Below, piece after piece: positions 1 through 20,164 of a stretch of DNA of 22,918 nt. Below the pieces are notes generated by a model. It saw only the letters and a program-made list of their open reading frames with translations, had not been told where the DNA came from and ran no database searches. The position numbers and the translations under genes are program-made. How positions within the stretch are numbered: position 1 is the stretch's first letter; the number at the start of each line of letters is the position of its first letter. Origin of the DNA: Psammoneis japonica (Eukaryota); contig QPGO01000145.1 in the NCBI GenBank assembly GCA_008632985.1, positions 186,001 through 208,918 on the forward strand. The letters run 5' to 3'.

Positions 1-1240
1 CCACCAGTGCACACCACATGCAAATGTGGGAGGGCACTCATTGTCCTTGAGTGCCTTGGCAAGTTTGGCTTTGCGGCGCTGTTGACTTTTTTTCTCTTGC
101 TTGAGCATTTGCAAAACACAAGCGCAAATCACACGTTTTGCCTGTGCGCTGCCTTTGTCCTTGCTGCCAGTCCAGTGATGAGGAAGGGCCAGTAGATTCT
201 CTTGGGCATTTCTTGCTGTTTTCATGGTCTCCCTCTTGTTTGAAGGTGCAGGAGCAAAAACAATGGCAGCAGCTGGGTTCTGCCAAAAGAAAGAGTTGAA
301 ATTGGGTCAGCTGATGAGTTGCACCACATGAAACTCATGTTGTCATTTTGACCACAATGAGAGCAATCAGAAAACAAGCAGTTTGAAGCAAGGTTTGCAT
401 GTGACAGGATTGGCCCTCCACAAGCAGCAACAATGTTGTCAACTTGCAACTCAGTTCAACTTGTGGTCAAGAATCTCCTCTCAGCATCATCCAAAGTGAG
501 CGACAGTCATGTGTTGCAATTGCAGAGCTTGCGCCACATCAAGGTTAATTGGGCTGTGAGAACTTGTCCCTGCATGTGTCCAGCACCTGCTCTGTGTGGC
601 AGCTTGCACTCTCTGACATGCTTGCAAACCCCCTTGGCTGTGTGTGAGTGGAGTTGCAGAAGGAGCGCCCATCTGTGCAAGGTTTCTAGCTGCACCTTTT
701 TTCTTCTGCTGTGTTCTCACTGTCAGTTGCTGCCAGCACCAGCCTGACCAAGTCTGTTCCCTCTGTCTGTTTGGTGGGCCATGCTCTTCAATCAGGCTGA
801 TGCTGGTGGTGACAACAGATGAGTGGCCCAGTGGAGAAAGTTCATAGAGTCATCAGACAGATGGGAAAAGTGGCTGAGTTCTCCTTTGCCAATCCCACAA
901 ATGACTGGGGGGAGAGTGACTGCTGGGCTTGTGGGACATGAAGCTGACTCTGAAGTTGCCAAACTCTGAAGTCTTTGACTGCTTTCAAAAACATCCAAGT
1001 GTGCTCTTGTCACATCTGAATCTTGGTGCAGAGGGGAGCCATTCTCCTTTTTTTGTGCACTTGCCAGAGAGCATTGCACTTCATGCTGGCTGTTCAAGTC
1101 CAAAGGCTGCTGCTCCTTCTTCTTCATTGTGGCAAAACAAGAAGTGTCACTCACAGTTTTTCCTTGTCTGTGCAACACCGCAAGTGAGACCACATGCCCC
1201 ATCTGCATGATCCTTGAACGGCTGCACTTCTTGATGGGAG
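1..1240. other. TpA/CpG-depleted, TpG/CpA-rich degenerate block (left, truncated by window edge)
   Basis: Only about 4 TpA counted in 1-1240 and few CpG. Normal TA/CG content resumes abruptly at ~1245 (ttctaggacatcgcccgtagggtgtagtagg). ORFs here are short, Cys/His-rich and Tyr-free. Confidence 0.85.
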
Positions 1241-1588
1241 ATTTCTAGGACATCGCCCGTAGGGTGTAGTAGGATGGTCCCCAAGGACACTCTACCGGAA
1301 ACGGCATCCGGAACACGGATGAAAATTATGGTAAATGCGCTAATGCGGTGGATTTCATGGTCATTGACATGGCGGCTGCCACCACTCCCATTATTTTTAC
1401 CATGAAACTGTGTCCCACTGCTTGCTTGGGAGGAAAAAGGTACAATATTGCTATAGTTGCCAGTTATTAAACGCTTGGTTCTTACAATGCTGCCACTAAC
1501 CACCTTTCTGAAGCGTGGACGACAAACGCACTGTAGTGCTTGTGTCTCTACCTTGCCTCTCTCTTGTAGTCTATGTCTGCGATACTGT

Positions 1589-2575
1589 CTAGTCGCTTTC
1601 GACTTTCTTTTCGGTTTCAACATTTACTGATAGCTTTTCTGCCATCGACTTTTCCACCTGGGCGACACCATTGTCAGAGTTGTCGGAAGTGGCATTATCG
1701 CCCTCTGCAACTGCATCATTTTTTGATTCTGTCTCTTGAAGATACCTTTCATACTGCTTGATCATCATATCGGCCCAATAGCGGGCAATCAATAAACGAA
1801 CGATTCGCCGGTCTCCTCTAAAGCTCGGTCCAGTCGCCGTGGCATCATCCGGATCGCGTTCTTGACCAGCATCCGCATCACCCGCTTGTTCCTCTTCGTC
1901 GTCGTCGTTGTTGGACGCAGAAGTCGACGGACCACGCTCTAACAGTTTGGGTCCTCCCAGTGTTTTCAATCGTTCCAGCCATACGGCAAGCACTTGTTCA
2001 TTTACGCTTCCGTCAGAATTTGCTATGTCCAGAGTAAAGCCTCCTCGTCGATCAAACAAGAGCGCTTCTTCAAAGTCCACCTCGGCTTTTCCTCGTGCGT
2101 CTGTTTTGTATTCCGTCATTTTAAACTTGGATACTTGCTCCACCACCGTGCACAACACTACCGCATAAGCCGAATGGATTCCATACTGTGAGTTGAGACG
2201 TTCTCTAATTCCAGATCGCGGCATTTGAAAAATCTTTCTCAGCACAACGCCGCCTTGCTGTCGACACCATTTCTCCAATGCTTCGCTGTGCTTTTCCCAA
2301 AATTCCTTGTACGTCTTCATTTCCTTTTTCATCTTGTATCGCAGCCGAACGCGATCACCCCACACCTGATCACGCATATCCGGTGGCCACGGGCTCTGTT
2401 GCAGGGCTGACACTTCGGCTTGAGCCGCGTCGGTTTCAAAGTCCGAAATCGAATTGATAAGACCCGTAATGCCGTCTGGATACAAATGTGGAAAGCCACA
2501 GCAGGCGCAAGATCCACCACTCACATACTCAAACATGGTCTTGTCCACCACCCAGTTGTCCTGAAAACGAGGCAT
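1589..2575 (-). CDS. Hypothetical protein, ~328 aa, apparently single exon (MPRFQDNWVVDK...KKVESD)
   Basis: Long ORF in normal-composition DNA with natural amino-acid usage including Tyr, an N-terminal CACCGFPH motif and acidic linkers. Start chosen at ATG 2575 because the upstream extension to 2728 runs into the repeat beginning at 2682. No family recognised. Confidence 0.8.
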   Translation of the reverse strand: MPRFQDNWVVDKTMFEYVSGGSCACCGFPHLYPDGITGLINSISDFETDAAQAEVSALQQSPWPPDMRDQVWGDRVRLRYKMKKEMKTYKEFWEKHSEALEKWCRQQGGVVLRKIFQMPRSGIRERLNSQYGIHSAYAVVLCTVVEQVSKFKMTEYKTDARGKAEVDFEEALLFDRRGGFTLDIANSDGSVNEQVLAVWLERLKTLGGPKLLERGPSTSASNNDDDEEEQAGDADAGQERDPDDATATGPSFRGDRRIVRLLIARYWADMMIKQYERYLQETESKNDAVAEGDNATSDNSDNGVAQVEKSMAEKLSVNVETEKKVESD

Positions 2576-2681
2576 GTTGTACAACAGTGCTTGACTTTCC
2601 TTCTTTTTTATGAACAGTGCACCTGCTACCACAATCAGAAAAAATTGCCAGTTACGAGTTAACGAGTGCTGCGTGGGTGAA

Positions 2682-5625
2682 CGGTGAATTGTGCTCAGCA
2701 CCCATTTCAACCACACCTGACCCCTCATCTATCATGAGCTTGTTGATGCCGAACAACAACAGAACAGGCTAACAGAATGCCAAACGTTTGTTTCTCGCCA
2801 CATCATTTACTTTGTAGCAGCAGCAACAACAGTAATTGGGTGTGGCAGAGGAGGCAGAAGAAGGAGGCTTGTCATTGAGGCCGAGTCGATTCCAAACTGC
2901 GCAAGGAAGGGCAGAGGCGCCGATGTGTGGGGTGGTGGTGAAGAAGCATCTCCAAAAGCGGGTTCACACAAGAGACCCCAGCAGAGCCCAACAAACAGGG
3001 AGACAGTGGCAACAGTGACATGGAAGATGATGTGACCAATGACCCCATGCTGATGCCCACTCGTGGATGCTGTGAGAGAGCCAGATTGGCGCAGCAGAGG
3101 TCTCTCACTGGGTGAGACCATGATCATCATGCCCACATGGGTGCTGTGAGAGCCAGGTTGGCACAGGTCTTGCTGGGTGAAGACAACAAAGACAACTGAG
3201 GGCATGCAGTGGGTGAGTCACCACATGCTAAGATGGCCTCACAATGACAGTTTTCCAGCTCCAAAACCTGCCTCACATTTGGGGCAGGAAACAGAGTTCG
3301 GAAAAGTTGACAACCCCAGCCAGAAGAGCCCACTCACAACCTGCCAAGCAGAGTTTTAGAGCTCTGGCTCAAAGCAACACAAGTGCCACTCTCTGATGAC
3401 AGGCATGACTCCTGTGCTGGTTGATGCAGGTGGCAGCAAGCAAGTGACTGGTGATTGGCCTTTCTGGCCACTGTGCAGGTTGGGACAAAAGTTGGAGAAC
3501 AAGGAGCAAGATTTGGGGGACATCTTCAGAAGTGAGACTGTAAAAGAAAGTCACATGGAATTTGTGCTAAAACAGTCTGTCAATCATTGCAATTGGGGCA
3601 TTTGGGAAAATGCTGGAAAGATCCTGCGTGTTTTCTTGTGTGCACAAATTGCACTGGGAAAACCCCCAAGTGCACTGGCAATCAGACCGCCTTTGACAAT
3701 CTCACTTCCAAAGATGCCCCCCAGATTGGAGCTTCAGAGGCAGCAGGCAAGGAGTTGGCAAAAGAAGTGGCATCTTGTCCCAAGAAAGCCAGCGCGAGAA
3801 TTTGGTTGTTGGTGTGCTGTGATGAAGCTGGAGATGTCCAAGGAGCATCTCCAAAAAATGCTCCCTCTTTTTCTTTCAGCTGTGGTGGCTTGCTGACCTT
3901 CTTCAGGAAAAGCCCAGGCAGACTTTGGCATGGGGAGTTTCTTGCTCTTTCCCAAGTGTGATGTTGAACCATCTGGCATGGATGGCATGGGCATCAGAGT
4001 TTTGAAAAACATGCTTGCTTGACAACTTGATTGTTCTAGCTTCCTTGACTTGGGTCCAATGCCGTGGCTCCATCTGGTGTCATTTGGATGGCTGGGAATG
4101 CCAGCATCCACGTGCAAAAATAAAGTCCGCATGATTGTGTTGCAAACAGTTTGATCAAGACTTTTGTCTGCTCTGCCATGAGTGTTGTCAAAGCAAAAGA
4201 CTTGCTTGTTGAAGAAGAATGCAGACAATGCCGAAATGTTGCCTGCTTGCTTGAGGCAACATCCAGAACTCAGAACTGCCCACGCATTCTGAACACATCA
4301 GCCATTCCAACGCATGCAATGGGCTTCTTAGATTCAACATGAACCCCCAGTTTTTCTACCCCATTCGAGTCTCGCAACTTCACAGCACCAGCACTGACAG
4401 CGGGAACAGGATGGACCGTGCAAAAGCATGTCTGCAATTTTTGCTGCAGGAAGGAAACCCCAACTTCGACTCTAGACTGTTGCAAGTTCACAGGATCAAC
4501 GACCAGGAGGAATGTGAGCTTGTCGAGAGGAGGCAAAATCGTTCCGAGTCCACGTCAATGGTGATGCACTGAGCTGTGGTGAAAGGGGCGTGTGTTCTTG
4601 AATGTCTTCATTGGCGGGGGGCAAAGAAGAGACTTCAATCACAACAATGTCCTTTTCTGCTGGGAGTGGATTTTTAAACTCTGCATCATGAGGATTCACC
4701 AAGTGCACCCCGACAACACCCAATTGGAGAATCGATTCCGGAAGTTTGATGAGTGCGCAATGTTTGTCCGTCGGTGAATTTGTCGACACCAACAGAGCGC
4801 ATTGAGCAGTGCCAACGATGGTGTTCTTTGCTCCACCAAAATGGTCAAACCATGTGTGTGTTGCTTGTTTGTTGGGGTCATGCAAGTTGTGATTGTTGGC
4901 ACCAATCACGGGAACTTCACAAATTAGATTCGATGACAGAGGATCAGCAGCAAGCTGCAGATCCATCACTGCCGCTTCGATTTGGTTGACGGACTCAACC
5001 ATCCATTGTTCAAACCATGTCATTGGCTTGTTGTGTGGAATTGTCGGCATGTTCATTGCTGTGGCAGCCAGCTGCCGTTGATGAAGACTGCAGAAAAGAG
5101 TGATGCAGGGATCATAGAAACTTGAGGTTTTGAGGTTCTCAGAAGAGAGGCAGTGTGCATTCTTGTGCAAGAGATTCAAGCTGGTTGCGGAGCAAACGAC
5201 TCCATGCTACAGTGTCGTGCATTGACAGAGCTGCCTTGAAGGCTTTGTTGGACAACGTCGTGGCAATGATCAGAGCATGATGAAAGATGGAAATTGCAAC
5301 ACGGCCATGCGGCGTTCTCTTCAAGTCTTGAGTCTGTGCAAGACTGTGACCTGTGAAATGCGCTTGTCAGTTTTCGCACACAAGTTTGCTTCATGGCAAT
5401 TTTGTGCATCTGCACCACATAATTTACAGCGACATGCGTCTTGCTGCTTTCCGACTCTCGCCTGTGACCTCCGTCCGACAAAAACACGGTGAAGCACGGG
5501 AATGCATCCAACAATGGCGGTGCCAATCATCATTGATTCTGCCATTTTTCACCATTCTCCCATGTTTCAGTGAGCTCTTGATGGCAATGAAAGAGGGCTT
5601 TGGTGCTTGCATTGTTTCTGTTGGC
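2682..5625. repeat. Repeat copy A (long form) of a locally duplicated degenerate element
   Basis: 2682-3883 aligns with 6061-6947 (with gaps) and 5365-5625 aligns with 6945-7223, e.g. tgtgctcagcacccatttcaac and aagcacgggaatgcatc..acaatggcggtgccaat occur in both. Confidence 0.85.
4270..5179 (-). pseudogene. Decayed coding sequence of unknown family inside repeat copy A
   Basis: Overlapping minus-strand ORFs 4496-5179 (227 aa) and 4270-4536 read as protein-like (WFEQWMVESVNQIEAAVMDLQL, DIVVIEVSSLPP, LLVVDPVNLQQSRVEVGVSFLQ) but are frameshifted and nearly Tyr-free. No domain recognised. Confidence 0.4.
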
Positions 5626-6060
5626 ACCACCCATCTGCCAAGGGGGGCACCCGCTGTTTGCTGCAAAGACTTTGAACAATGGTGTCAATGGCTGAACTGA
5701 TCAAACTCAGAGGAAACCCACAAATTCAGACATGATCCAGTGTGGGATGAGATGATTCTTTCATGCTTTCAAACAATTCAAGGATTGACTGGAGACAATG
5801 TGAAGGAAATCAACAAATGTTGTGCAAGACTGTGTGCAGAGGCCTCTGGTGCAACACTGGACCAAAAAGGAAAGTGCCATCCCAGCAAGCAGCGCAACCT
5901 GTGCTGTTGCCACCAATCTTGACAGGAATGCTGTCAATGATGGCATTTTCAAGAAGATGCCAGAGAGAAAACACTCAAAATCTCTTGCACAGCCACCCCG
6001 TAAACCCACATGCCGGGTGGACACAGCGGTCAGATTGCCGGTGTCATTTTTCAAGTTGAT

Positions 6061-7223
6061 CGGTGAGTTGTGCTCAGCACCCATTTCAACTGCACATCAT
6101 GAGCTTGTTGATGCTGAACAACAACAGAGCAGGCCAACAGAATGCCAAACGTTTGTTTCTCATCACATCATTCACTTTGCAGCAACAACAGCAATTGGGT
6201 GTGGCAGAGGAGGCAGAAGGAGGAGGCTTGTCATTGAGGCCAAGTCTTCCAAGCTGCATGGGATCGCGGCTAAAAGAAGCATTTCCAAAAGCGGGTTTTG
6301 CACAAGAGGCCCCAGAAGAGGCCAAGGAACAGGGAGACAGTGGCAACAGTGACACAGAAGATGATGTGGCCAATGACGACCATGATGATGCCCACTCATG
6401 GATGCTGTGAGAGCCAGGTTGGTGCAGGTCTTCTTGCTGGGGTGAGACCATGATGATGCCCAAATGGGTGCTGTGAGAGCCAGGTTGGCACAGGTCTTGC
6501 TGAGTGAAGACAACAAAGACTGCTGAGTGCCTGCAGTTGGTGAGTCACCACATGCCAAGATGGCCTGACAATGACAGTTTCCCAGCTCCAAAAACTCACT
6601 TGTGGCAGGAGCCAGAATTCAGAAAAGTTGACAACCCCAGCCATTGAGGTGCCCGCTCACCTGCCAAGCAGAGTTTGAGAGCTCTTTTTCAAAGCAACAG
6701 AAATGCCACTCTCTGTTGACAGACACAGCTTCTGTGCTGGTCATTGCAGGCAGTGACGGGCAAAAAGTTGGAGAACAAGGAAGCAAGATTGGAGCTTCAA
6801 AGGCACCAGCAGGCAAAGAGTTTGCGAAAGAAGTGGCACCTTGTTCCCAGAAAGCCAGCTTGGGAATTTGGTTGTTGGTGTGTTGTGAAGAAGCCAGGGA
6901 TGTCCAAGGGGCATTTCCAAAACAAATGCACCCTTTTTTTCAGCTGTCAGTTTTCACACACAAAATGTGCTGCCTCCATTTGCGTTGTTGCAATTTTGCA
7001 GTGCCAGCATCATGTGCAGCAGAAATTTGCAGCATTGAGTCTTGCTGCTTTTGAACTGCCGCCTCCAACATCCAACAAAAAAACATGGCAAAGCACGGGA
7101 ATGCATCTGACAATGGCGGTGCCAATTGTCATTGATTTTGCCACTTTCATCACTCTCTCATGTTTCAGCGAGCTTCCAATGGCAATGAGACAGAGCTTTG
7201 GTGCTTGCATTGTTTCCTTTGGC
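6061..7223. repeat. Repeat copy B (internally deleted form of copy A), same orientation
   Basis: Collinear with copy A but lacks ~214 bp (A 3509-3722) and ~1.48 kb (A 3884-5367). Confidence 0.85.
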
Positions 7224-7557
7224 TGCACTTTCACTCACATTTTTTTCTCTGTCTGTGCCATTTTGACATTCCAGCAGGCATGTCACACAGTGTGTTTGCT
7301 TTTGTAGAGTGCCGTTGCAGCTCAAGTTGTCTTTCATCAACCAAAGCTCATGAAAGTGGTTCAAACATTGAACATTTGATGGTGTTGCAGTGTGGACATT
7401 CAAGGTGATGGGAGGGTCACAAATGGCTTGCACTCAAGAGAAATTGAGCTCACAACATTTGTCTCTCTCATGAGTTGGATTTTGAACCAGGTGTTGCAGC
7501 CCATTGAGTGAAATGTTGCACGACAGACATGCCAGAAGGCAGAGTTGAATGTGAGCA

Positions 7558-9423
7558 ATGAAGAGATTGAATTTGTGGTGCACAGAAGGGCAACATCAAC
7601 TTCTGTCTGTTGGCAAAGGGAGTGACTTGAATGGAGTGACTTGCTCTCAACTTGTGCCAATGCTGGCACAAAGCAAAGAAGAGAGCAGAAGCTTGGACAC
7701 AATTTCAAAGGAACTGCATGTGAGAATGAAGGCAGCATTGTTGAATGATCAACCAGAATGCTCACCATTGACAGATGAATGACATCCACTCAGCCATTGC
7801 TGTGCTTCATCCTGCAACTCCTTGTTGTCAAACAAAGTGTTGGCTTGGGCAAAGCGCCGGGCATTCTAAATGACTGAGTTGATTGTTCAAGCAATGAGAC
7901 AGCTGCAGCAAATCCACAAGATGCCAGTGTCAACAAATTGGCTTTTGATGGCTGCACACCTTTCCAAGAAAAGCACAAGCATGGCAGCACAGCACCTGTT
8001 CCAACAAGAAGTGCTGTTGGCACTGATGCTTGCTGTGGCATGCCTGGCTCAACAGATGACCAATCCTCCACCAGCAGCAAAAAAGATGTCAAAGCAAATG
8101 GGGGCTGGGTGTCATGATGTGAAAGCCAATTGCAAGAAGGCTGGTGACCAGGAGAGTGGGAGTCAATCATTTGAACTTTGGAAAAGGAAGAAACAGAGTG
8201 ACCACATCATCAAGTTCTGCCAACACTCAAAAGAAGGACTCAGAGTTGGTGCTGAGTCAAACAGGGTTTGCAAAGTTGAGGATCTGGCAACAGGGACATT
8301 TTTTATTCACCCAGCTAGAGTGTGGAGCAGTGCAACTCTTGAGAGTCAACGCAATGCACCCAAACAACCAGGCATCTGCAAGATGTGTTTGCCCGTGCAC
8401 CAAGGGCCCGTCTGAGCATGTTTCTGTGTGGATTTTCCAAAAACTGGGCCAGAAGAGCCCATGAGTGAGCTGAACAAAGCACTGGCCAACAATCCAGTCA
8501 TGTGGGAAAAAGCAAAAAAGAACTGCCCTTGTGGTTGTGTGTTAGAGTTTTTTGACTTTGTTTTGTGGCAAGGAAGCATCAGTTGGTGGAGAGCCAAGCC
8601 ACAGTTTTGAGTGCCACAAGCAAACAAAAGATGCTTCTTGTGTTGCTTAGAACTGACCAAATGACTTGCTGTGTTTGGACAGCATCATTTCAGCTTCAGC
8701 ATTTGTGTGGGTTCTGCATGCCACAACCGCAACTTGTTGAGGCTCAAAACCTGTCCAAGTGCTGTTGTGAAACTTTGGCATGCTTGTTCAACTTGATTTG
8801 TTGTGGTTCAATCAGTTGCAAGCACAAAACTTTTGTGCACATTCCATGAGAACTTTCCCGACATCTGCCATGACACATGCTTTTTGCAAGTTGTTGAAAC
8901 AATGACAACACACAACAGCTCAAAACTTCAAGCTTTTGCAAAAACTTGTTGCCCCATCATGACTGATCTCCTCACCTTGTCCGCAAAACAAACATGGCAT
9001 CCACAAGAGCACTGGAACAAATTGCCCACATGTGTCCCTGGCACATCATCTGTCTGCATTCTCTGACAATCCATGAGGTGACTGGGTGTGCAAAGTGTGT
9101 GTGCATTGGCTGACACACAGACTCATGACAGAGAGCAAAATGACACCGCAGACTGCACAGGTGGAGTAAGCAGGAAAGTTAAAACAGACAGTTTTGACCA
9201 CAGGCACCAGCACAAAAAAATCTGCATGAAGAAACAAAACATCTGTAAAGATGAAGAAGATCTTGAAAACATTGAACTCTGCAAAAATCCTCCAAGCAAG
9301 TCAAAAATGCTGTTTCAACCATGGCACATTTTTGACACGGCAAGCACACCTTGCAGAGATCCAATTGTTGAGGCATCAACTTCGTTGAACAAAAACAATG
9401 CACAGTTGTGTTCACATTTTTAG
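7558..9423 (+). pseudogene. Possible decayed coding sequence of unknown family
   Basis: A chain of plus-strand ORF fragments (7558-7782, 7870-8415, 8428-8610, 8803-9066, 9088-9423) with charged, protein-like stretches (ESRSLDTISKELHVRMKAALLND, RVCKVEDLATGTFFI). No motif identified, and ORF length is inflated by loss of TAA/TAG. Confidence 0.3.
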
Positions 9424-9471
9424 CTGTTTGTTTGTTTTTGGTGCTGTGGAGGTTGCTTTGTCATTGACAAA

Positions 9472-10988
9472 ATGATGGCATGCAACAAATTTTCAACTTG
9501 TCCAAACCCTTGTTGGGGACAAAATGATGATCTGGGGATGCTGTTGCATTGCAAATCATTCACACACTGCAGAGCATTGTGATCACTGTGGACATTGTGT
9601 CTTCTTGACATCAGTTTGCTCCTGAAGTCAGTCACAAGAACACAATGAGACGGCAAACATCACACCATTTTATGAACATTTCAGTGACCCAACAAATGAA
9701 GGGTCATTTTCACTTTGAAAGGCTCTGCTGTTTGACAAACATTTAGCCTCATGGCTTGCCAGCAATGATTGCACATTTCACTCATCACACACTGTGATGA
9801 AGCCACTGAAATGGACGTTTGAACACCACAGTGTTCACAAGGAGGCTCATCATTGAGTCTTCCAAGCTGCATCATCAATCAATCCATGCGTTCACACCTG
9901 TTGCACCCTTTCCACTCTCTTTGTCATCCAGCCACCAACCAGCAGTCCAGTGGCACAATGTCCAGTTGGTGCAGTCCAACTGCAAGGCAACCGATGCTTG
10001 ATTGAACAGAATCACCAACACTGCACCCAATGCTTGATCCAACAAAAAAAATCACCAACACTGCACCCCCAACACATGATGCATGATGCCAATGCTGTCT
10101 CCAGCTCTGTTTCTTCCCTGCTGAAAAACCAACCCCACAGCCAACATTGGAGCCAATCTTAACTTGCGGTGGAGAGTGCAGCCAGACATTGCAGATGTGC
10201 TGGTGCATTGTTCAGGTGTGCATCACGACCATTGTCATGATGGCATCATGCAAGAAATTTTCAAATTGTCCAAACCCTTGTTGGGGAAAAAATGATGATC
10301 TGTTGATGCCGTTGCATTGCAAATCATTCACACACTGCAGAGCATTGTGATCACTGTGGACATTGTGTCTTCTTGACATCAGCTCACTCCCAAAGTCAGT
10401 CACAATGCAATGACGGCAAACATCACACCATTTTGTGAACACCTCAGTGACCCAAATGAAGGGTCATTTTTACTTTGAAAGGCTCTGCTGTTTGACAAAC
10501 ATTTGGCCTTGTGGCTTGCCAGCAATGGCTGCACATTTCACTCATCACACTTTGTGATGACGTCACTGAAATTGACATTTGAGCACCATCATCATGTTCA
10601 CAAGGAGGCTCATCATTGAGTCTTCCAAGCTGCATCATCAATCAATCCATGCACTCACACACCTGTTGCACCCTTTCCACTCTCTTTGTCATCCAGCCAC
10701 CAACCAGCGGTCCAATGACACAATGTCCAGTTGGTGCGGTCCAACCGCAAGGCAACCAATGCTTGATCCAACAGAATTGCCAACACTGCAACCAATGCTT
10801 GATCCAACAAAATCACCAACACTGCACCCCCAACACATGATGCATGATGCCAATGCTGTCTCTGGCTCTGTTTCTCCCCAGCTGAAAAATCAATTGGAGC
10901 CCATCTTGACCAGCAATGGAGAGTGCGACCAGACATTGCAGACTGCACTGGTGCATTGTTCAGGTGTGCATCATGACCGTTGTCATGA
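9472..10988. repeat. Tandem duplication, two copies of a ~765 bp unit (9472-10236, 10237-10988)
   Basis: Both units start atgatggca..tgcaa.aaattttcaa.ttgtccaaacccttgttgggga and end ggtgcattgttcaggtgtgcatca.gacc.ttgtc, with high identity throughout. Confidence 0.92.
10741..10830 (+). pseudogene. Remnant of a Pro/Thr (PTxxPT) repeat coding region; second copy at ~9976-10069
   Basis: Translates PTARQPMLDPTELPTLQPMLDPTKSPTLHP from a 36-bp internal repeat. PMLD fits ancestral PTLD (ACG->ATG). Confidence 0.5.
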
Positions 10989-11678
10989 GACAGACCTTCT
11001 TGGCATCATGTCTTCATGCTCTGACACATGTGCTCCTGCAGGCTGAAAGACAAAAGAGCAATGCCGGATGAATGTTGGACTGAGGGATGCTGGAGGGATG
11101 CTGAACAATGCTCTCTGGCTTGTTGCTGGACATCACCTGGTTGACTCATCTTTCTGCTGTCAGCTTTGAAATGTCTTGGGTTTGGATGCAACCACCATGT
11201 GGTTGAACAGTGTTGCTGACTTTGAAATGAGGCAACACACTTGAGGGAGTTTGTGTGTTGGATTTTTGACACTCAAGCCTCTTTCAGTGCATTCCCACCC
11301 AAGATGCTGATGGCTGATGATGGGGTGGGTGCTGCCTCTCAGCATGACCTGACCAATCCACTGCACTGCTGTTTCAGAGAAGCCTTGGTGCTCAACAAGG
11401 CAGGGCACAGTGCTGCACTTTTTCAAGATGCAGCCTGGCAAGACTCATGGCTGGCTTGACAAATGTGATGGGTCAGCTGCCCCATGTGCAGAGCATGGTG
11501 CAAAGCCAGGGGTGGTTGACTCTCATTGCCTTCAGAGGAGACAACAAGGAAAACTGCCATGTGCAGCTCACATGAAAGGACAAGTCAGTTGGTGGTGCCA
11601 GGACTGGCAATTGTGACATCATCAAGCATGCTGATGTCAAAACAATCTGGTCCTTTCTTGCCCTCCTCCAGGGTTGGA

Positions 11679-13110
11679 TCAACAGGAATGCAGATGGTTT
11701 GTTGAGTGGAGCAAGTGCACATGTGCAGCACTTGCACATTTGTGCAACACCTCAAGGAAAAACAGTGTGAAGAAAAAGCTGAGACACGGTCCTGGTGAGG
11801 AATGTGGGTGGCACAAATGGAAGGGCTCATCAAGAATGGCATCATGATGGATTTGTTGAGTGCTGGCCTCATCCCTTGGATCCCAAAAGTCATCTGCTTG
11901 CACTGCTGCTGTCATCTCATTGGAGCTGTGGCTGTGCTTCCACACAACATTGCCAGATGGGTGGCACATGGTCATGCTGCTGGAAGCAGGGCAGAAGCTC
12001 TCATTGAGCACCAAAGCAAAAAACTGCAAGAAGGCATCTGCTCTTGCTCTGCAAACCATCATGCGCTCAGGTCAAAGCTGTGCATGTGCACCTTCAAGAT
12101 GCTGCAGACAGAAGGTGATGCCACCTGAGGCTGCACATGACCCACCATGAGATGAGCCAAAGAGCCTTGAGGATGAAGTGGGCCAGGGCAAGGTTGCCAT
12201 TGAAAGTGCCACATTGCTCCTTTGGCTTTCATGACACAGGACAGTCAAGTTGTCTGGAAAATGACCTGCACCATTCTCACAACTTGAGCTCATGAATTGT
12301 TGAAGGAGCAGCACCAAAGGCTGCCAGCATGGAAAAGATCAAGAAGGCTTTGTGGAGGTCTCAGGCAGGCAGTTGAAACCCAGATGAGAAAGTGGGCATG
12401 GTCATTGCCAAAGTGCTCACCTCCCAGCTGGGCATGGATTGGTTGTTCCTGCCCACCACATTTGTCATTTAAAGCCACACCCAACTCCCATTGTGACACA
12501 CCAGTGCACACCTCCTGCTGGCAGGAGCTGCTTCACTCACTCCCTGCTTTTCATTTGCATGTGCATTGACTTGCTGCAGGGGGCAAGCTGACATGAAAAA
12601 TGTGTCATGAAAAGTTGGGCTCTTGCACCACATGACTGTGGAAGAAAAGAGCTGGGTGTCATGGGTCTTGGGCAGATTTGCCATTTGGTCATCCAGCCCT
12701 GCAAAACTGTCATGACTGAGCTGGATCCCAGACAGAGTTTGCTCACCTTGAGGTCATTGAACAGCCCAGGAGATTTGCTGAAGAACCCACTTGATTCTGG
12801 ACTGGCAGTGTGGACTTGGGGGGCACTTGAAACAACATTTTTTGAGACAGAAGGAGAAGGACAAGTCAAATGGAAAAGTTCAATGGAAAAGAAAAAGGAA
12901 TTGGCCACACAACCTGTGGAAGAAACAACGCAAGAATGATTAAAGTCAATGTTCAATGCACAGTGGAAACAATTGCTTTCGCCCCCCTTGCTTTCCCCAG
13001 CAGACGTGATGCAGGTTGCATGTGCAATCAGCACGGCCATGCTGTCATTGTCGATGAAGGAAATGCAGAAAGGCTGTTTGGTGCCCCAGGTGCCAAAGTT
13101 CTGAAATTGA
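11679..13110 (-). pseudogene. Heavily mutated former protein-coding gene of unknown family
   Basis: Successive minus-strand fragments (12469-12684, 12290-12511, 12072-12317, 11679-12062) read as globular protein with His/Cys where Tyr would be natural (GSSHGGSCAASGG, NDKCGGQEQPIHAQLGGEHFGNDHAHFLIW). Possible relic intron at 12914-12991. Confidence 0.45.
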
Positions 13111-13302
13111 TCAAGTCGTTGGATGAAAATGGTTTAAAAATGCCAGGTTCGGGAGTTGGGCAAAATACAATCTAGAGCTAGTCGCACCGGCGCAGGCTTT
13201 CAAGCTTTTCGCTACTCATACTTGTCATCAGGACTTACTTAATTATGTACATGAAAAAGATAACACCTCCATTGAAACAGAAAATTCTTACAGCAGAGTC
13301 CT

Positions 13303-14669
13303 CTAGATCTTGCCACTGATTATCAATTCCTCGACATACGTCTTGACGTCGGCGGGAACATCGTTCCTATGCAACTGCAAAAGAATTTTTTGGACTAATT
13401 GAAGAGAGATGTTGAATTCCAGCATACTCAAGAACGGCACTGAGATGAATTTGATCCAGTTCGGGCATGTCATCAATTGCTTAACCCCGTACTCATGTGC
13501 CCTTGCCTCTGCATTGGTTATGAGGCTCACAATTTCAGCTGCCACCCAATAGTTATATTCCGGTGGATCGCACAGTGGCGGCAAAATAACTTCCAAATCA
13601 CCAACAACAAGGTTGTGTCTCCCTATAAGATCAAAGAGAGGTTCTAGAATCTCTTTGAAAGAAGTGAATGGCGGATGCAACAGATCGGGCAGGAACAGAT
13701 GATGTATCGTTTTCATGTCCACCTCCCTGTTGCGGAAGGGTGACAGCAAGTCCTCCACAAACTCCTTTAGGGATCCGCTATGATGACTATGTTCTGCTGC
13801 GTGCACAAAAACCTGAAACAGGCGATGGTATGCAGGACGCTCAGCCGCAAGCTCGGCAAACGCGCGTATCCATGGTCTAGCCCCTTTCTTGAGTTTATAA
13901 TCGCCATATCCACGTCTGTAGAACCAACAGTTGGTACTAGTAGAAAGCTCTTTTGAAACAAGGAGGACCTCCTCCGCCGATCGTCCAGCTACACACAACC
14001 AATCATATAGAACTTTGACTTGAACCTCACATATGTCCTGGTTTGTAGCGGACGCAATAGCACGTGCCAGCTTCTTTGCGGAGTCGACGTCCATTGATTC
14101 CACGAGCCTCCCCCCTCCCCTGTGAGCGATGGCGACAATTCTTCAATCCTTGAAGTGGGAATCGACTTTAGCAGATCGACATCTTCCATCGATGCAACAT
14201 GGTTTTTGCACAGGCTCACGATTTCCGGGACCCGGTCCTCCAGAAGCAAAAAGTCTGCTGTGCGCAGCAGCGCCACTGCCTCATCCATGTCTGATGCAAC
14301 AAGCCTTGAGCGGACAAACGACTTCTCTTCCACAAGAGACAGCAGCGCATTAAGAGCGTCAATGCTGCATCATTGGGGCAGCATGATGTGGCTGCGGTCA
14401 GCGCAGTTGTCTCTGTCTCCAATGTTGGTTGAGATCTTGCGGTCGAGAAAAGGAATCCTCTGGCACACTTCATGGCTCACTGCAAATTTCCGTCTTTCAC
14501 CACTTGAATCTGCGACCTTGAAGGTATAAAAGGTGTCGTCTCCACGAAATCGCTTCTGAGGCGACTGAGCCACACCTTCGCTGCTATCCATAGACCGTTT
14601 CTGAGATGCTGGTGGTTCTCCCCGCTTTGGAGGCGCTGTGCCTTGGGACTGGCGACCCTGACTGCTCAT
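13303..14669 (-). pseudogene. BTB/POZ-like domain protein gene disrupted by an in-frame TGA (14370-14372) and a frameshift in a G-run (~14110-14120)
   Basis: ATG 14669 runs ...KFAVSHEVCQRIPFLDRKIST...HIMLPQ*CSIDALNALLSLV...AVALLRTADFLLLEDRV in one frame, a pattern typical of BTB/SKP1-like folds. Coding continues in a shifted frame (RLVESMDVDSAKKLARAI...IISGKI, stop 13303). No GT-AG intron covers either lesion. Confidence 0.65.
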
Positions 14670-14962
14670 TCTGGATTCTTTCAAGGCGCGGCTAAAAGAC
14701 GAAGGTTAAGCGTCTTTGCGATAATGCAGTGAACCTCTTGTTTGTGCCTTTCTTCACACTTACTGTACAACGCCAACATTCTTTGCGGCTTCGACAGAGT
14801 GCTGAAGTTGAAATTGCCCCCTGCGCGGCGCGACTTGGCTTCAACTATCCTGCCCGCCGCCATCGCCATTGTTTTCTTGCTCGCGCTTACTGTATTTTCT
14901 CTCACGCACAGGCGCGAGCATGCGTTGAATTTTTAATTCTAGTTAATTCAGTACTGTAGAAG

Positions 14963-14970
14963 TATAAAAG
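14963..14970 (+). promoter_or_regulatory. TATA-like box (TATAAAAG) in the 483-bp divergent intergenic region
   Basis: Consensus match ~185 bp upstream of ATG 15153 in an AT-rich spacer between divergent genes. Motif only. Confidence 0.25.
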
Positions 14971-15152
14971 GAGACTTATGTGTATGGATGATTACGGTAT
15001 CAATATCGTGCAATTAATTTCTATTGCCTGACTATTGCCCTCGCAAAATCGCTCATCACCATCATCAGATTGAAGATGCGACATCACACATCACGCTTCA
15101 ATCGGCTTGAACTTCTCTCATAAACTCCAAAGGAACGAGAGGCAACAACACG

Positions 15153-17051
15153 ATGGCGTTGCAAGCTCGACATTGTAGCAGGGATTTCGCTAGTGCATCG
15201 GATTATTTAGACGATGATTGGGTTAATCTGAATAACACACGCTTTCTTGGTGGAGCAACTACGAGAAGTCGCCAAGCTCGAGATGATTCCGCTGACGACA
15301 TTCTGTTTGGAACCACAAGCGCATCAATGAGCACCGTTGAGAGCATAGAAGACACGACATCGCCAGCGATTGTATCAGATGATGAAGATAGTGGGTGGGT
15401 GGACGAGCTTTATCAGAGTAACGGCTCCCGACGTCCTACGCGGCACCGCGCTCCTTCAGAGAACTATTCAACCGTGGCCAGAAACGTCTCTCCCATAGCA
15501 GAGCATCAAGAGCAAGAGAGAATCGTGCTTGGAACGAGCGTCACCATCTTTGGAAGCAGCAAGCACTCTGGAAAGATTGGCACCTTTGTCAAATTTACAG
15601 AGAAGAGAGTTTGTGTGCAACTCGATGTCGGATCGCGGTACTTTGCGTTCAAGAATGTACGAACCGCAGACGGTCAAGCTGTTGTGCCACCTCAAGACCG
15701 CATGGCACGTATGACAACAGTGGTTGGTCATGAGAACAACTCGGTTGCTACGAATGATTCAAGACCTCCCGTCCAAGCCAGGGTCAGGATTGTTGGTGCC
15801 ACCCATCGAAACAAGACCGGTATTGTAATTAAGAACACCGAACATCGGGTCTGCGTTCAATTGGAACCAGAAATGATTCAACGATACTTTGCTCCGAAAA
15901 ATGTGCAAGTACTTGCCACTCCAAGCAATGAAGAATCTACTCGTGAACATACTGGAAATACGAGCACAATTCGAGCTGCTGTGCCACCTCATGACCGCAT
16001 CGCGCGTACTACAACTGCTGCTGCTCAAGACGAGAGTAACTCGGCTGCTACGAATGATTCACGACCTCCTGTCCAAGCTAGGGTCAGGATTGTTGGTGTC
16101 ACCCATCGAAACAAGACCGGTGTTGTAATTAAGAACACCGAACACCGGGTCTGTGTTCAATTGGAACCAGAAATGATTCAGCGATACTTTGCTCCGAAAA
16201 ATGTACAAATACTGGCCCCTCCAAGTAGTGAAGAATCTACTCGTGAAGATACTGGAAATATGAGCACAAGCAGTCGTCGGTACTCGTCTCCAAGCACCAC
16301 CGCTCCTCAGCCTCATGCAAGGCGCTCCACTTTGTCAACGACGTTGGCACCAAGAATCACCATCTCCTCCCGCCAACCTCGGAGTGTTTTATCATCAAAC
16401 CAGAACCATCACTTTCAGCTAGAGCCTACTAGTAGGCGCCCTGTTGTCATCACCAACGAGACAAGGACGAGGAATCGTCCGTCCTCGTCGACAAGCAGTG
16501 CCACTCCTCCAGTGGCGGTCATAGAAGAAGCACAGACAAGCCGATCAATCCGTCCATTGACTGCTTCTGCAACAAGAACCACCCCTCCTTCAATCGACGC
16601 GCCGAGGGTTCCCTCGTCAAGCCCAAACAATCGTTTTGATGCGGGACCTCCTGCGCAACGAAGGCAACAGTCATTTAGAAGAATTCCTGTCACCATGAGC
16701 GCCGAGAGAGTTTCGCCACCCACGTTTGCCCAGTCAAACTTGACCCGCGATATTCTTGCTGCATAAGGTGGCTTTTCTACTTTTCAACAACATGCGTTCA
16801 TGGCACGCTCTCAAGACCGCGCTCGCATTGTGGCGGATCGCGAGAGACGCATCCAAGAACTTCCCGTAGCAGTCATTGATGATCCAACGAAGTTGCCACA
16901 CAATCATCGGTCGTGTGCCGTTTGTCTCTGCACCTATAGCGCTGGAGATGAGCGACGAATGTTGCCGTGTTTTCATGGCTTTCATCGTTCCTGTGTCGAC
17001 CAATGGTTGCGAAGAAGCACGCAATGCCCCACTTGCCGGCAACACATTTAG
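15153..17051 (+). CDS. Protein with three KOW-like motifs and a C-terminal RING-H2 finger (putative E3 ubiquitin ligase), interrupted by in-frame TAA at 16764-16766
   Basis: KOW-like: GTSVTIFGSSKHSGKIGTFVKFTEKRVCVQL and 2x ARVRIVG.THRNKTG.VIKNTEHRVCVQLE. RING-H2: CAVC..LPCFHGFHRSCVDQWL..QCPTC. The 33 nt after the TAA keep the frame (GGFSTFQQHAF-MARSQ). Confidence 0.75.
15678..16269 (+). repeat. In-frame ~300 bp (100 aa) tandem duplication duplicating one KOW-like module
   Basis: 15781-15969 matches 16081-16269 at an offset of exactly 300, with looser similarity back to 15678/15975. Confidence 0.95.
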
Positions 17052-17610
17052 GTTACTATACAGAAAAAAGTCAGGGCTGCAAGAGGAGTTGGCGGATGTT
17101 CTTTTCCAAATATAGTTTCTCCCTTGTTGGCATCGAGTGTCCTCGGTCCTCTCCACAAAGCCTTTCTCGCAGTTGACTCCTGCTCTTGTTTCCTTCTTTT
17201 CGGTTTCTTCTAAAGAGCGCAATTTTGCGCACGGAAAAACGAACAAGATAGAGCTAAGTCACATGAATTACCATTAAGCAGTGCATAATCATGTGAAAGG
17301 CAGTGAACTTGTCGCTCTAGACTCTACAATACTCTATGGTGGCTTAGAAGTAAGTGTCCCGGGATGATCCCATGTCTGGGGGGTCGCGTCCGTCAGTTGA
17401 CCGTACGACTCTTCTGTCCTTCGTACGAGAGGTGTCATGCCCCTCGTCCCTCTGAAAAAAAAACGAGAAACGAAAACGGCCGCAACAGGCAATGACGAAC
17501 GCACATTCTTGCACATTGGGTGTTTCTCTATCTCGACTCTCTGTGTCTCTCTCTCTCCCTCTGCTTGAAACCCGTTCATCTTACGCTATTCTGATTCTGC
17601 TTAGGCTGCG

Positions 17611-18926: not shown

Positions 18927-18943
18927 AACGCAGTTGTCAGGAA

Positions 18944-18960
18944 AGAGAGAGAGAGAGAGA
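18944..18960. repeat. (AG)8 microsatellite in the 3' region between convergent genes
   Basis: agagagagagagagaga seen directly. Confidence 0.8.
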
Positions 18961-19105
18961 TGCGTTCCGGTAATGATTCTGGAACAAGATATCTGCGAGC
19001 TAGAGACTATTCATACCGCGCTAGTAAATGGCAACAATTGTGTCTGTAAGTTGCGAAGGACATTCACAGTTTTCATAAAAAAAAAAGCACGAGGTCATAC
19101 TTTTG

Positions 19106-20072: not shown

Positions 20073-20082
20073 GAAATGCTCT

Positions 20083-20164
20083 CTACTAGGGCCCTAGTAG
20101 CTATCGGTATGAGAAACAACCCCAGTCGTATCAATGTTAGTTGCTCAACACCGGTAGCTACTAG
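20083..20164. repeat. Perfect 18-bp palindrome (20083-20100) overlapping an imperfect inverted repeat (20094-20113 / 20144-20164)
   Basis: ctactagggccctagtag is self-complementary. ctagtagctatcggtatgag pairs with ctcaacaccggtagctactag. Confidence 0.8.

What the first reader, a model, noticed from the sequence alone, without database searches (positions are those of the whole stretch)
2840..13165. Candidate RIP-like genome-defence system: repeat domains are stripped of both TpA and CpG, converging on TpG/CpA
Seen: 11041-12900 has about 1 TpA and 3 CpG in 1860 bp, where base composition predicts on the order of 100 each. Gene islands a few hundred bases away have both in plenty. The same signature appears at 1-1240 and 20250-22918, and the duplicated or decayed sequence I could identify lies in these blocks. 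Established: CpG loss in repeats follows from 5mC deamination (diatoms methylate transposon CpG via DNMT5), and fungal RIP turns CpA into TpA, creating TpA. Neither removes TpA. Inference: a second targeted process converts TpA to TpG/CpA (A->G on either strand) in silenced repeat domains. Candidates are a DNA adenine deaminase or context-specific error-prone repair coupled to methylated chromatin. I know of no described eukaryotic system with this spectrum, but cannot search the literature.
Basis: partly seen in the sequence, partly recalled or inferred. Interest (0 to 1): 0.95.

Follow-up and report, generated by a model that had tools for sequence, protein, structure and literature searches.

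The report
TpA- and CpG-erased silent DNA in a diatom
In this diatom, the DNA outside active gene islands has had nearly every TA and CG step converted to TG or CA, the footprint of a regional TA-directed hypermutation that has so far been described only in one 2026 preprint on a distantly related alga.

Summary
In 2840-13165, TpA is 34 observed against 700 expected and CpG is 123 against 590. In 11041-12900 the counts are 1 against 116 and 3 against 115. CpA and TpG are about doubled. TpA borders are sharp, at 1246, 2833, 13135 and 20247. Contigs built from reads of a DNA run carry the same sequence.

The pattern is mutational and arose in place:
- Pyrimidine-purine step density is the same in domains and islands, 0.2433 against 0.2441.
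- A tandem copy of a gene's promoter that lies inside the domain lost all 3 aligned TpA.
- A trypsin-like protease gene relic at 4273-5032 changed all 5 conserved Tyr codons to His or Cys.

TpA loss is wider and more complete than CpG loss, so two processes are at work. It follows position rather than duplication, so it is not RIP.

A 2026 bioRxiv preprint shows TpA-only A:T>G:C hypermutation of silent viral inserts in Bigelowiella natans. This window is a diatom version that is saturated, hits non-viral DNA and is combined with CpG decay. The enzyme is unknown.

The parts
1..1245 (.). Converted domain 1, cut by the window edge. It is TpA- and CpG-poor.
   Evidence: TA 4 observed against 79 expected and CG 10 against 75 in 1-1240. 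The first dense TA is at 1246.
1246..2833 (-). Gene island 1. It holds one gene (ORF 1592-2728, minus strand, a diatom family of unknown function) with about 100-350 nt of flanks, and its TA and CG are normal.
   Evidence: Bins. There are 254 homologues; the best named is Seminavis robusta at 58%. Flanks keep TA: 24 against 23.8 expected in 1246-1591.
2834..13134 (.). Converted domain 2, the finding itself. It is 10.3 kb in which nearly all TA and most CG steps now read TG or CA.
   Evidence: No Pfam family reaches its threshold in any scanned frame.
2834..2960 (.). Left margin of domain 2. TpA is gone but CpG is kept.
   Evidence: TA 0 against 5.6 expected; CG 6 against 8.4 expected.
2678..6056 (+). 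Unit 1 of a tandem duplication. Its first 156 nt (2678-2833) lie in island 1 and keep TA and CG.
   Evidence: Alignment 2678-3513 against 6057-6790: 725 aligned positions, 89% identical. Repeat families D4, D8, D9, D11, D12 and D15.
6057..7228 (+). Unit 2 of the tandem duplication, wholly inside the domain. The copy of the promoter and the first codons of the gene has CA where unit 1 has TA, and TG or CA where unit 1 has CG.
   Evidence: TA at 2770, 2808 and 2833 reads CA in unit 2 (3 of 3 aligned TA in 2678-2833). CG at 2750, 2796 and 2882 reads TG or CA. 5407-5630 matches 7011-7228.
3584..3699 (.). Short high-copy element inside the domain.
   Evidence: Summed contig depth is 1158 in bin 3336-4002, against about 60 elsewhere. 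There is a joint skipping 3583-3700 and an opposite-strand joint at 3612/3691. A loose end from another copy reads TA and CG where the window reads TG.
4273..5032 (-). Relic of a trypsin-like serine protease gene of a diatom family. It has a frameshift, an in-frame TGA and an internal deletion of about 80 aa. It lies in a sub-block (about 4250-5500) that has lost TpA but keeps most CpG.
   Evidence: 16 homologues, best E 3e-32. P0133 is a Seminavis robusta protein. tblastn gives two segments in frames -1 and -2. All 5 conserved Tyr columns are changed (His CAC, CAT, CAT; Cys TGC; a further His at a column with 4 of 7 Tyr). There are 0 Tyr in 255 aa against 6-16 in the full-length homologues. 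The sub-block has TA 9 against 82 expected and CG 48 against 74 expected.
9439..10942 (+). Tandem duplication of about 760 nt inside the domain.
   Evidence: 728 aligned positions, 91% identical. 6 CA/TG double differences and 0 conserved TA.
11041..12900 (.). The most completely converted core.
   Evidence: TA 1 against 116 expected and CG 3 against 115. A TA-free run of 1998 nt spans 10472-12469.
12942..13134 (.). Right margin of domain 2. It is TpA-free and CpG is partly kept.
   Evidence: TA 0 against 13.2 expected; CG 5 against 10.9 expected.
13135..20247 (.). Gene island 2, several close-packed genes with normal TA and CG. They include an acyltransferase with two GT..AG introns and a mitochondrial-carrier-like gene.
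   Evidence: (joints 17872/17965 and 18287/18387).
20248..22918 (.). Converted domain 3, cut by the window edge. It has a CpG-retaining margin at 20248-20487 and a tandem array of about 184 nt at 21680-22418.
   Evidence: TA 10 against 167 expected. The margin has TA 0 against 12.5 expected and CG 15 against 16.9. The four array units show CA/TG flips.

Best explanation
The window comes from a diatom whose genome is split into active gene islands and silent spacer domains. In the domains, two context-specific transition processes act on the DNA in place.

1. A regional hypermutation turns TpA into TpG or CpA (A:T>G:C on either strand). It is the same signature that was measured directly in Bigelowiella natans mutation-accumulation lines.
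2. The usual decay of CpG to TpG or CpA occurs, presumably through methylated cytosine.

Both end at the same product, so all pyrimidine-purine steps converge on TG/CA while base composition stays near 48% G+C.

Shown:
- The changes are transitions at YR steps.
- They arise in place, on both strands, in whatever DNA sits in a domain (a copied host promoter, a host gene relic, tandem repeats).
- TpA loss reaches further and is more complete than CpG loss.

Inferred:
- Targeting goes by chromatin or transcription state rather than by repetition or foreign origin.
- The TpA step is enzymatic, most likely an adenine deaminase acting on DNA (ADAT2/TadA-like). I put about 0.35 on that specific enzyme class.
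For: Composition:
- YR steps are 0.2433 of all steps in the domains and 0.2441 in the islands.
- Converting every island TA and CG to TG or CA in silico gives CA+TG of 0.2441. The domain has 0.2265 plus residual CG 0.0134 and TA 0.0034.
- G+C is 0.482 in both.

Polarity, first case:
- Unit 1 of a tandem duplication keeps TA at 2770, 2808 and 2833 where it lies in the island.
- The copy inside the domain reads CA at all 3 aligned sites. A fourth TA to CA change is at 3229.
- CG is lost at 2750, 2796 and 2882 and kept at 2682 and 2785.

Polarity, second case, with outgroups:
- In the protease relic, 58 of 76 conserved columns are unchanged.
- All 5 columns with conserved Tyr are changed, to His (CAY) or Cys (TGY). 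Comparing Tyr columns with the other conserved columns, Fisher p = 4.6e-4.
- A conserved Arg reads TGA.
- Both TA>CA and TA>TG occur within the one relic, so the process acts on DNA and on both strands.

Evidence of independent resolution after duplication: CA/TG double differences number 6, 6 and 5 in three domain pairs (1671 aligned nt). Conserved TA is 0 of 329 conserved YR steps, against 9 of 57 in the island repeat, p = 2e-8.

Evidence for two separable processes:
- TA-free margins of 127-240 nt keep CpG.
- The relic sub-block has TA 9 against 82 expected but CG 48 against 74.

Not explained by coding selection: island introns, UTRs and spacers keep TA and CG.

Present in reads.

Precedent:
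- In B. natans, 230 of 231 mutations in two silent viral inserts are A>G or T>C, all at TpA, at about 6e-7 per site per generation.
- That genome has 124 TpA-poor, CpA+TpG-rich clusters (abstract plus sections 6 and 12 and passages read).
- CG methylation of silent transposons depends on DNMT5 in the diatom P. tricornutum (passages).
Against: - This is one window only. No genome is held, so the genome-wide extent, the enzyme and the methylation state are all untested.
- Polarised TpA events are few: 4 in the duplication, 5 in the relic and 1 from a loose end.
- The read support may come from the same sample as the assembly.
- About 118 kb around homologues in 13 metagenome loci of other diatoms shows no such domain. 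The lowest 500-nt TA observed/expected ratio there is 0.36. The process is therefore not general in diatoms, or those contigs simply lack silent DNA.
- The excess of CA/TG doubles over the small island control is not significant (17 in 1671 nt against 0 in 296 nt, p = 0.09).
- The flank bias of surviving TA is strong: YTAR is 27 of 47, against 63 of 325 in islands, p = 4e-8. But the simple reading (the A is hit best when followed by a pyrimidine) is not borne out by the polarised events. Three of 4 YTAY sites went to CA and not TG.
- No strand-coordinated runs were seen (z = -1.3, the same as in islands). A processive single-strand deaminase might leave such runs.
Confidence: 0.75

Rival explanations
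1. A single dual-specificity DNA deaminase of the ADAT2/TadA type, with a preference for a 5' T, removes both TpA (A>I) and CpG (C>U at TCG). Cytosine methylation would then not be needed.
For: Amphioxus ADAT2 deaminates both A and C in DNA and prefers TCG for C (passages). The B. natans preprint cites Trypanosoma ADAT2 likewise. In this window, TCG is the CpG context that survives least: symmetrised survival is CGA (the reverse complement of TCG) 0.15, CGT 0.22, CGC 0.30 and CGG 0.32.
Against: CpG loss is nested 70-240 nt inside the TpA borders and is weak in the relic sub-block, where TpA is almost gone. That fits two processes with different reach better than one enzyme. The CpG context effect is only two-fold. 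BjADAT2's preferred A context was GAA, not TA. The B. natans spectrum has almost no C>T.
Confidence: 0.1
2. There is no dedicated mutator. Instead a base modification or lesion at TpA in silent chromatin mispairs, or it goes unrepaired where there is no transcription-coupled repair. Examples are oxidised thymine from a TET/JBP-type enzyme or a modified adenine. Alternatively, a T:G-directed repair enzyme drives T>C, as very-short-patch repair is thought to deplete CTAG in E. coli (recalled, not checked).
For: The TA-retaining islands match transcription units plus about 100-250 nt. A repair-coupled model predicts this as well as a chromatin-targeted mutator does. T>C and A>G cannot be told apart from double-stranded sequence.
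Against: Depletion is almost total and specific to TpA; AA/TT and AT are barely changed. No UV-type loss of dipyrimidines is seen; CC/GG is slightly up. In B. natans the process is switched on in only 11 of 15 lines, which suggests a regulated activity. No such modification is documented for diatoms in the searches made.
Confidence: 0.12
3. The domains are inserted DNA that was TpA- and CpG-free before arrival (a mobile element or virus with that composition), or selection removes TA and CG.
For: The borders are very sharp, as insertion borders would be.
Against: The TpA border at 2833 lies inside a duplicated segment, not at its end. The 156 nt of ordinary island DNA copied into the domain lost its TA there. 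Homologues of the relic carry Tyr at the changed sites. No viral or transposon domain appears in 149 scanned frames. No selective reason is known for removing every TA from non-coding DNA.
Confidence: 0.02
4. The pattern is an artefact of sequencing, base-calling of modified bases, or polishing.
For: Systematic miscalls at modified motifs are known for some long-read data (recalled).
Against: Contigs assembled from a public run reproduce the domain at normal depth with 13 differences in 2489 nt. The pattern obeys biological borders and is written into the codons of a gene relic.
Confidence: 0.01

Closest known systems
TpA-targeted hypermutation of silent integrated viral DNA in Bigelowiella natans (Mettrop et al., bioRxiv 10.64898/2026.01.13.699255, 2026; abstract, sections 6 and 12 and passages read)
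   Same: The product spectrum is the same: TpA to TpG or CpA, on both strands, confined to regions. The long-term footprint is the same: clustered 1-kb windows with low Rho_TpA and high Rho_CpA+TpG, and this window passes their cut-offs in 13 of 23 windows. In both cases the targets are silent DNA.
   Different: - The lineage differs: diatom (stramenopile) against chlorarachniophyte (rhizarian).
- Depletion here is near-complete, with Rho_TpA 0.00-0.10 over 10 kb, against 0.45 for their giant-virus insert.
- The DNA hit here is not recognisably viral or transposon-derived. It includes a copied host promoter and a host-family gene relic.
- CpG is lost as well here; their text never mentions CpG (0 occurrences).
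- Rates were measured directly there and are only inferred here.
Fungal repeat-induced point mutation (RIP)
   Same: It causes regional hypermutation by transitions that disables the DNA it hits, and the affected blocks have sharp edges.
   Different: RIP makes C:G>T:A, mostly CpA>TpA, so it creates TpA and lowers G+C (abstract of PMC2621366 in the listing, plus recalled knowledge). Here TpA is destroyed and G+C is unchanged. RIP hits both copies of a duplication; here only the copy lying in a domain is hit.
Methyl-CpG decay in DNMT5-methylated silent DNA of diatoms (Hoguin et al. 2023, PMC9998398, passages read)
   Same: It accounts for the CpG>TpG/CpA half of the pattern. CG methylation in P. 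tricornutum sits on transposons and heterochromatin and depends on DNMT5a.
   Different: It cannot remove TpA. Methylation of this locus was not measured. The CpG-depleted zone is smaller than the TpA-depleted zone.
DNA deamination by tRNA adenosine deaminases ADAT2/3 (amphioxus BjADAT2, PMC10354150, passages read)
   Same: It is a natural eukaryotic enzyme that deaminates A and C in DNA. It is the candidate class named for B. natans.
   Different: The reported context preferences are GAA and TCG, not TpA. No role in regional genome silencing has been shown. No such gene could be looked for here.
ADAR hyper-editing of repeat RNA, with a 5' U preference
   Same: It gives A>G next to a 5' U/T (as cited in the preprint).
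   Different: It acts on RNA. A genomic footprint would need a retrocopy and would mark one strand only. The relic here carries both TA>CA and TA>TG, and a promoter copy is also hit.

Membership tests
TpA-targeted regional hypermutation (B. natans type) | Mutations are A:T>G:C transitions confined to TpA, giving TpG or CpA. | tested here: met
   Ten polarised events, all TA>CA or TA>TG. YR-step density is conserved and the composition is reproduced by in-silico conversion. A few other A/G differences also occur in the duplicates.
TpA-targeted regional hypermutation (B. natans type) | [quoted passage not shown] | tested here: met
   13 of 23 windows pass, ten of them consecutive.
TpA-targeted regional hypermutation (B. 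natans type) | The targets are integrated viral or other foreign sequences. | tested here: not met
   No viral or transposon Pfam family in 149 domain frames. The relic belongs to a family with a Seminavis robusta member. It has no close relative in viral contigs. A copied host promoter is also hit.
TpA-targeted regional hypermutation (B. natans type) | A de novo rate about 1000-fold above background, active in some lines only. | not testable with these tools
   This needs mutation-accumulation lines or population data.
TpA-targeted regional hypermutation (B. natans type) | A candidate ADAT2-like deaminase with HxE-PCxxC and the DNA-editing Asn. | not testable with these tools
   No genome is held for this window.
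Fungal RIP | C:G>T:A transitions, chiefly CpA>TpA, which raise TpA and A+T. | tested here: not met
   TpA is removed, CpA and TpG are doubled, and G+C is 0.482 in both domains and islands.
Fungal RIP | Triggered by duplication, with both copies mutated. | tested here: not met
   The island part of unit 1 keeps its TA and CG while unit 2 lost them. The 300-nt island repeat keeps 9 TA and 11 CG.
Methyl-CpG decay | CpG>TpG/CpA with no other dinucleotide affected. | tested here: not met
   The CpG part is met. But TpA is depleted more strongly and over a wider span, so this alone does not explain the locus.
Methyl-CpG decay | The depleted DNA is cytosine-methylated. | not testable with these tools
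   No bisulfite or signal-level data are available.
RNA editing footprint through retrocopies | A>G on the sense strand of a transcribed, reverse-transcribed element only. | tested here: not met
   Within one relic, Tyr became His four times (T>C on the sense strand) and Cys once (A>G). TG and CA counts are equal over the domain, 1140 against 1152.

The most novel reading that the evidence does not exclude
Diatoms, and perhaps the whole stramenopile-alveolate-rhizarian group, may have a chromatin-guided base-conversion system. It would rewrite any DNA that falls outside an active transcription unit by erasing every TpA, faster than methylation erases CpG. Because the A:T>G:C and G:C>A:T changes balance, G+C stays constant. 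Silent DNA would thereby be stripped of TAA and TAG stop codons, TATA-like signals and Tyr codons. It would also avoid the A+T-rich product that RIP makes. The target would be the chromatin state rather than foreignness or repetition, and the enzyme would be a DNA adenine deaminase shared with Bigelowiella.
Probability: 0.2. Interest if true: 0.9.

Novelty: new variant of a known kind. Interest (0 to 1): 0.72.

Why it matters
- TpA-directed DNA hypermutation was found in these searches only in a single 2026 preprint, on one rhizarian alga.
- A saturated footprint in a diatom would show that the process is not a curiosity of that species.
- It would show that the process can reshape most of a genome's non-genic DNA, and that it acts on host-derived silent DNA as well as on viruses.
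- The razor-sharp borders and the nested CpG zone give a ready natural map for finding what guides it (transcription, histone marks or methylation).
- Diatoms can be genetically manipulated, so the enzyme could be hunted by knockout.
- It also matters in practice. Such domains distort repeat annotation, gene prediction (only TGA stops remain) and divergence dating.

Tried and rejected
- **Whole genome.** None is held, so no genome-wide scan or deaminase search was possible.
- **Earlier notes of this scan.** Nothing for this genome, its relatives or the key words.
- **RNA evidence.**
  - No listed holder is on record as RNA.
  - Run X2 behaves like RNA, with GT..AG joints in the acyltransferase gene.
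  - Its contigs lie only on 1335-2668 and from about 13298 onward, with none on the domains.
  - A part without cover cannot count as evidence of silence.
- **Strand-coordinated runs of TG against CA.** None beyond what the islands show.
- **Purine/pyrimidine-coded self-comparison for older duplicates.** Nothing beyond the repeats already found.
- **Pfam on domain frames.**
  - 31 frames of 100 aa or more were scanned and 118 frames of 55-99 aa.
  - The only hits were two sub-threshold chance-level ones (PT repeat, DUF5391).
- **Rfam.** No match.
- **Shared motif at the four borders.** None seen by eye.
- **Relic family in viral contigs.**
  - The single-protein query found no relative.
- **The 537-aa island ORF.** No homologues.
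- **Literature.**
  - Ten full-text searches were run.
  - Only one search found a description of TpA-directed hypermutation, the B. natans preprint; one search returned the same preprint again.
  - None found it in diatoms.
  - Supplements of that preprint are closed. Its tables of mutated sites and flanks, which might settle the flank preference, were not seen.
  - The lead PMC4081816 was irrelevant.
- **Simple reading of the flank bias (A hit best before a pyrimidine).** Rejected as unproven, because the polarised events do not follow it.

Full report
**1.

| Region | TA obs/exp | CG obs/exp | CA obs/exp | TG obs/exp |
|---|---|---|---|---|
| 11041-12900 | 1/116 | 3/115 | 200/110 | 235/121 |
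| 2840-13165 | 34/700 | 123/590 | 1182/654 | 1172/631 |
| 1-1240 | 4/79 | 10/75 | not tabulated here | not tabulated here |
| 20250-22918 | 10/167 | 64/164 | not tabulated here | not tabulated here |

In 250-nt bins the window falls into three converted domains (1-1245, 2834-13134, 20248-22918) and two islands with ordinary counts. The TpA borders are abrupt. There are ten TA in 20102-20247 and then none for 283 nt. The other borders, at 1246, 2833 and 13135, are similar.

By the criteria of the one paper that describes such regions, 13 of 23 1-kb windows qualify, ten of them in a row.

**2. It is in reads**

One public DNA run (X1, coded) holds 83% of the sampled words of 9001-19000. Its contigs cover domains and islands at the same depth. 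One contig spans 10833-13321 with 13 differing letters.

X1 may be the sample the window was assembled from. It therefore rules out an assembly or polishing artefact but is not independent biological replication.

**3. Organism and genes**

The 379-aa ORF at 1592-2728 (minus strand) has 254 homologues. The named ones are all from diatoms: Seminavis robusta 58%, Phaeodactylum 51%, Nitzschia, Mayamaea, Amphora and Odontella. The top unnamed hit is 62% identical.

Island 2 holds an acyltransferase split by two GT..AG introns and a mitochondrial-carrier-like gene.

Non-coding parts of the islands keep TA and CG. The introns have 9 and 5 TA in 92 and 99 nt. The stretch 1246-1591 downstream of the ORF has 24 TA against 23.8 expected. 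The upstream stretch 20094-20247 has 11 against 10.1. The contrast is therefore regional, not coding against non-coding.

**4. The pattern is the product of transitions at YR steps**

Pyrimidine-purine steps make up 0.2441 of all steps in the islands and 0.2433 in the domains. Turning every island TA and CG into TG or CA in silico gives CA+TG of 0.2441. The domains have 0.2265, plus residual CG 0.0134 and TA 0.0034. The other dinucleotide classes agree within about 0.01, and G+C is 0.482 in both.

**5. It arises in place: the duplication**

A tandem duplication has unit 1 at 2678-6056 and unit 2 from 6057 onward. 725 positions align at 89% identity.

Unit 1 starts inside island 1, covering the first codons and the promoter of the gene. 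Up to the border at 2833 it carries TA at 2770, 2808 and 2833, and CG at 2682, 2750, 2785, 2796 and 2882.

Unit 2 lies wholly in the domain.
- It reads CA at all three aligned TA.
- It reads TG or CA at three of the five CG.
- A fourth TA to CA change is at 3229.

The border sits inside the duplicated segment, not at its end. Ordinary DNA copied into the domain was therefore converted there, while the original stayed intact. This speaks against pre-formed TA-free inserts and against a RIP-type rule that hits both copies.

**6. It arises in place: a gene relic with outgroups**

The ORF at 4499-5206 (minus strand) has 16 homologues in a search of 1.84 billion representatives, best E 3e-32. One is a Seminavis robusta protein.

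The family looks like a trypsin-like serine protease. This rests on leads only:
- AAHC and GDSG-type motifs in the alignment;
- a Pfam Trypsin hit at E 0.0056, below the cut-off;
- Atlas matches by features and by fold.

tblastn maps a relic at 5032-4574 (frame -1) and 4578-4273 (frame -2). About 80 residues are missing between the two segments, and there is an in-frame TGA where 5 of 6 homologues have Arg.

Of 76 conserved alignment columns, 58 are unchanged. All 5 columns with conserved Tyr are changed: His (CAC, CAT, CAT), Cys (TGC), and a further His at a column where 4 of 7 homologues have Tyr. The relic has no Tyr in 255 residues, against 6-16 in the six full-length homologues. Comparing Tyr columns with the other conserved columns gives Fisher p = 4.6e-4.

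Both TA>CA and TA>TG occur in one relic, and a promoter copy is hit too. Editing of a sense RNA followed by retrocopying therefore does not fit.

**7. Further signs of conversion after duplication**

Three domain pairs show 6, 6 and 5 sites where one copy has CA and the other TG. They hold no conserved TA among 329 conserved YR steps. The 300-nt repeat inside an island ORF has no such doubles and keeps 9 TA and 11 CG.
- The TA contrast is strong, p = 2e-8.
- The doubles contrast is not significant, p = 0.09, because the control is small.

The four units of the tandem array of about 184 nt at 21680-22418 also flip between CA and TG at many columns.

38 of the 40 listed differences between the window and the X1 contigs lie in the domains. 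Of those:
- 17 are CG against TG or CA;
- 10 form five CA/TG doubles;
- 1 is TA against TG.

126 further rows were not shown.

**8. Two processes, not one**

CpG depletion starts 70-240 nt inside each TpA border. The margins 2834-2960, 12942-13134 and 20248-20487 have no TA but 6, 5 and 15 CG.

The relic sub-block at 4250-5500 has 9 TA against 82 expected but 48 CG against 74 expected. In the duplication, 3 of 3 TA were lost against 3 of 5 CG.

TpA loss is therefore wider and, in younger DNA, more advanced than CpG loss.

**9. Context**

Surviving TA are mostly YTAR, 27 of 47, and RTAY is almost gone, 1 of 47. In the islands the figures are 63 and 91 of 325, p = 4e-8.

Symmetrised survival by context:

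| Context | Survival |
|---|---|
| TAA | 0.20 |
| TAG | 0.12 |
| TAC | 0.04 |
| TAT | 0.03 |
| CGA (= TCG) | 0.15 |
| CGT | 0.22 |
| CGC | 0.30 |
| CGG | 0.32 |

The few polarised events do not follow the simple rule that the A is hit best before a pyrimidine. I report the bias and leave its meaning open. No strand-coordinated runs were found.

**10. What the domains are made of**

They hold no recognisable transposon or viral gene (149 frames scanned). At 90% likeness they are mostly single-copy, apart from short high-copy pieces near 3584-3699 and 5693-5902. They do contain local tandem duplications, a host-family gene relic and a copied host promoter.

'Repeat domain' is thus only partly apt. 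'Silent spacer outside transcription units' fits better. The silence itself is inferred from position, not shown.

**11. Comparison with what is known**

Fungal RIP works in the opposite direction: it creates TpA and A+T richness and hits both copies. Membership fails on the features tested.

Methyl-CpG decay explains the CpG half. In P. tricornutum, CG methylation of transposons in heterochromatin depends on DNMT5a. It cannot explain TpA.

The closest match is a 2026 preprint on Bigelowiella natans.
- In mutation-accumulation lines, 231 of 302 nuclear mutations fell in two integrated viral regions.
- 230 of those were A>G or T>C and all were at TpA, at about 6e-7 per site per generation.
- This happened in only 11 of 15 lines.
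- The genome has 124 TpA-poor, CpA+TpG-rich clusters.
- An ADAT2-like protein is proposed as the enzyme.

That text mentions neither CpG nor diatoms. Amphioxus ADAT2 can deaminate both A and C in DNA, with TCG and GAA preferences. About 118 kb from 13 loci of other diatoms shows no such domain.

**12. Verdict**

The finding is real and striking.

It is not without precedent and it is not RIP-like in its trigger. I file it as a new variant of a just-described kind:
- a diatom case, saturated over 10-kb domains;
- acting on host-derived silent DNA;
- coupled with a narrower zone of CpG decay.

The guide and the enzyme remain unknown. An adenine deaminase acting on DNA is my leading guess, at about one in three.

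Noticed in passing
window 4273-5032 (-): Relic of a diatom protein family of about 350 aa with a trypsin-like fold (AAHC and GDSG-type motifs). It is broken by a frameshift, an in-frame TGA and a deletion of about 80 aa. The homologous stretch is absent from unit 2 of the tandem duplication: 3882-5406 corresponds to only 6948-7010. The relic was therefore either inserted into unit 1 after the duplication or deleted from unit 2.
   Followed up: yes
window 15674-16270 (+), inside ORF 15153-16766: A tandem coding repeat of about 300 nt, 89% identical, inside a 537-aa ORF that has no detectable homologues in the near-length search. It keeps normal TA and CG.
   Followed up: partly
window 14170-14524: A 355-nt stretch inside island 2 that is coding and covered by an RNA-like contig. 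It holds a single TA, where about 13 are expected at island density (Poisson 2.5e-5 before correction for multiple testing). CA+TG is raised and CpG is normal. It could be chance plus codon usage, or an old converted patch now within a gene.
   Followed up: partly
window 3584-3699 and about 5693-5902: Short pieces with summed contig depth of 1158 and 327, against about 60 elsewhere. Some contigs skip them, and there is an opposite-strand joint at 3612/3691. These are possibly miniature mobile elements. Another copy reads TA and CG where this copy reads TG.
   Followed up: partly
window 15259, 14112, 19086-19091: Small insertions and deletions between the window and the run contigs. One example is six extra letters after 15259 in both the DNA-like and the RNA-like run. 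These may be allelic or assembly differences.
   Followed up: no
window 19109-20093 (-): A mitochondrial-carrier-like gene that matches Pfam Mito_carr only weakly (E about 0.01-0.02). Its best homologue is 59% identical and unnamed; the best named hit is Fragilaria crotonensis at 35%.
   Followed up: no
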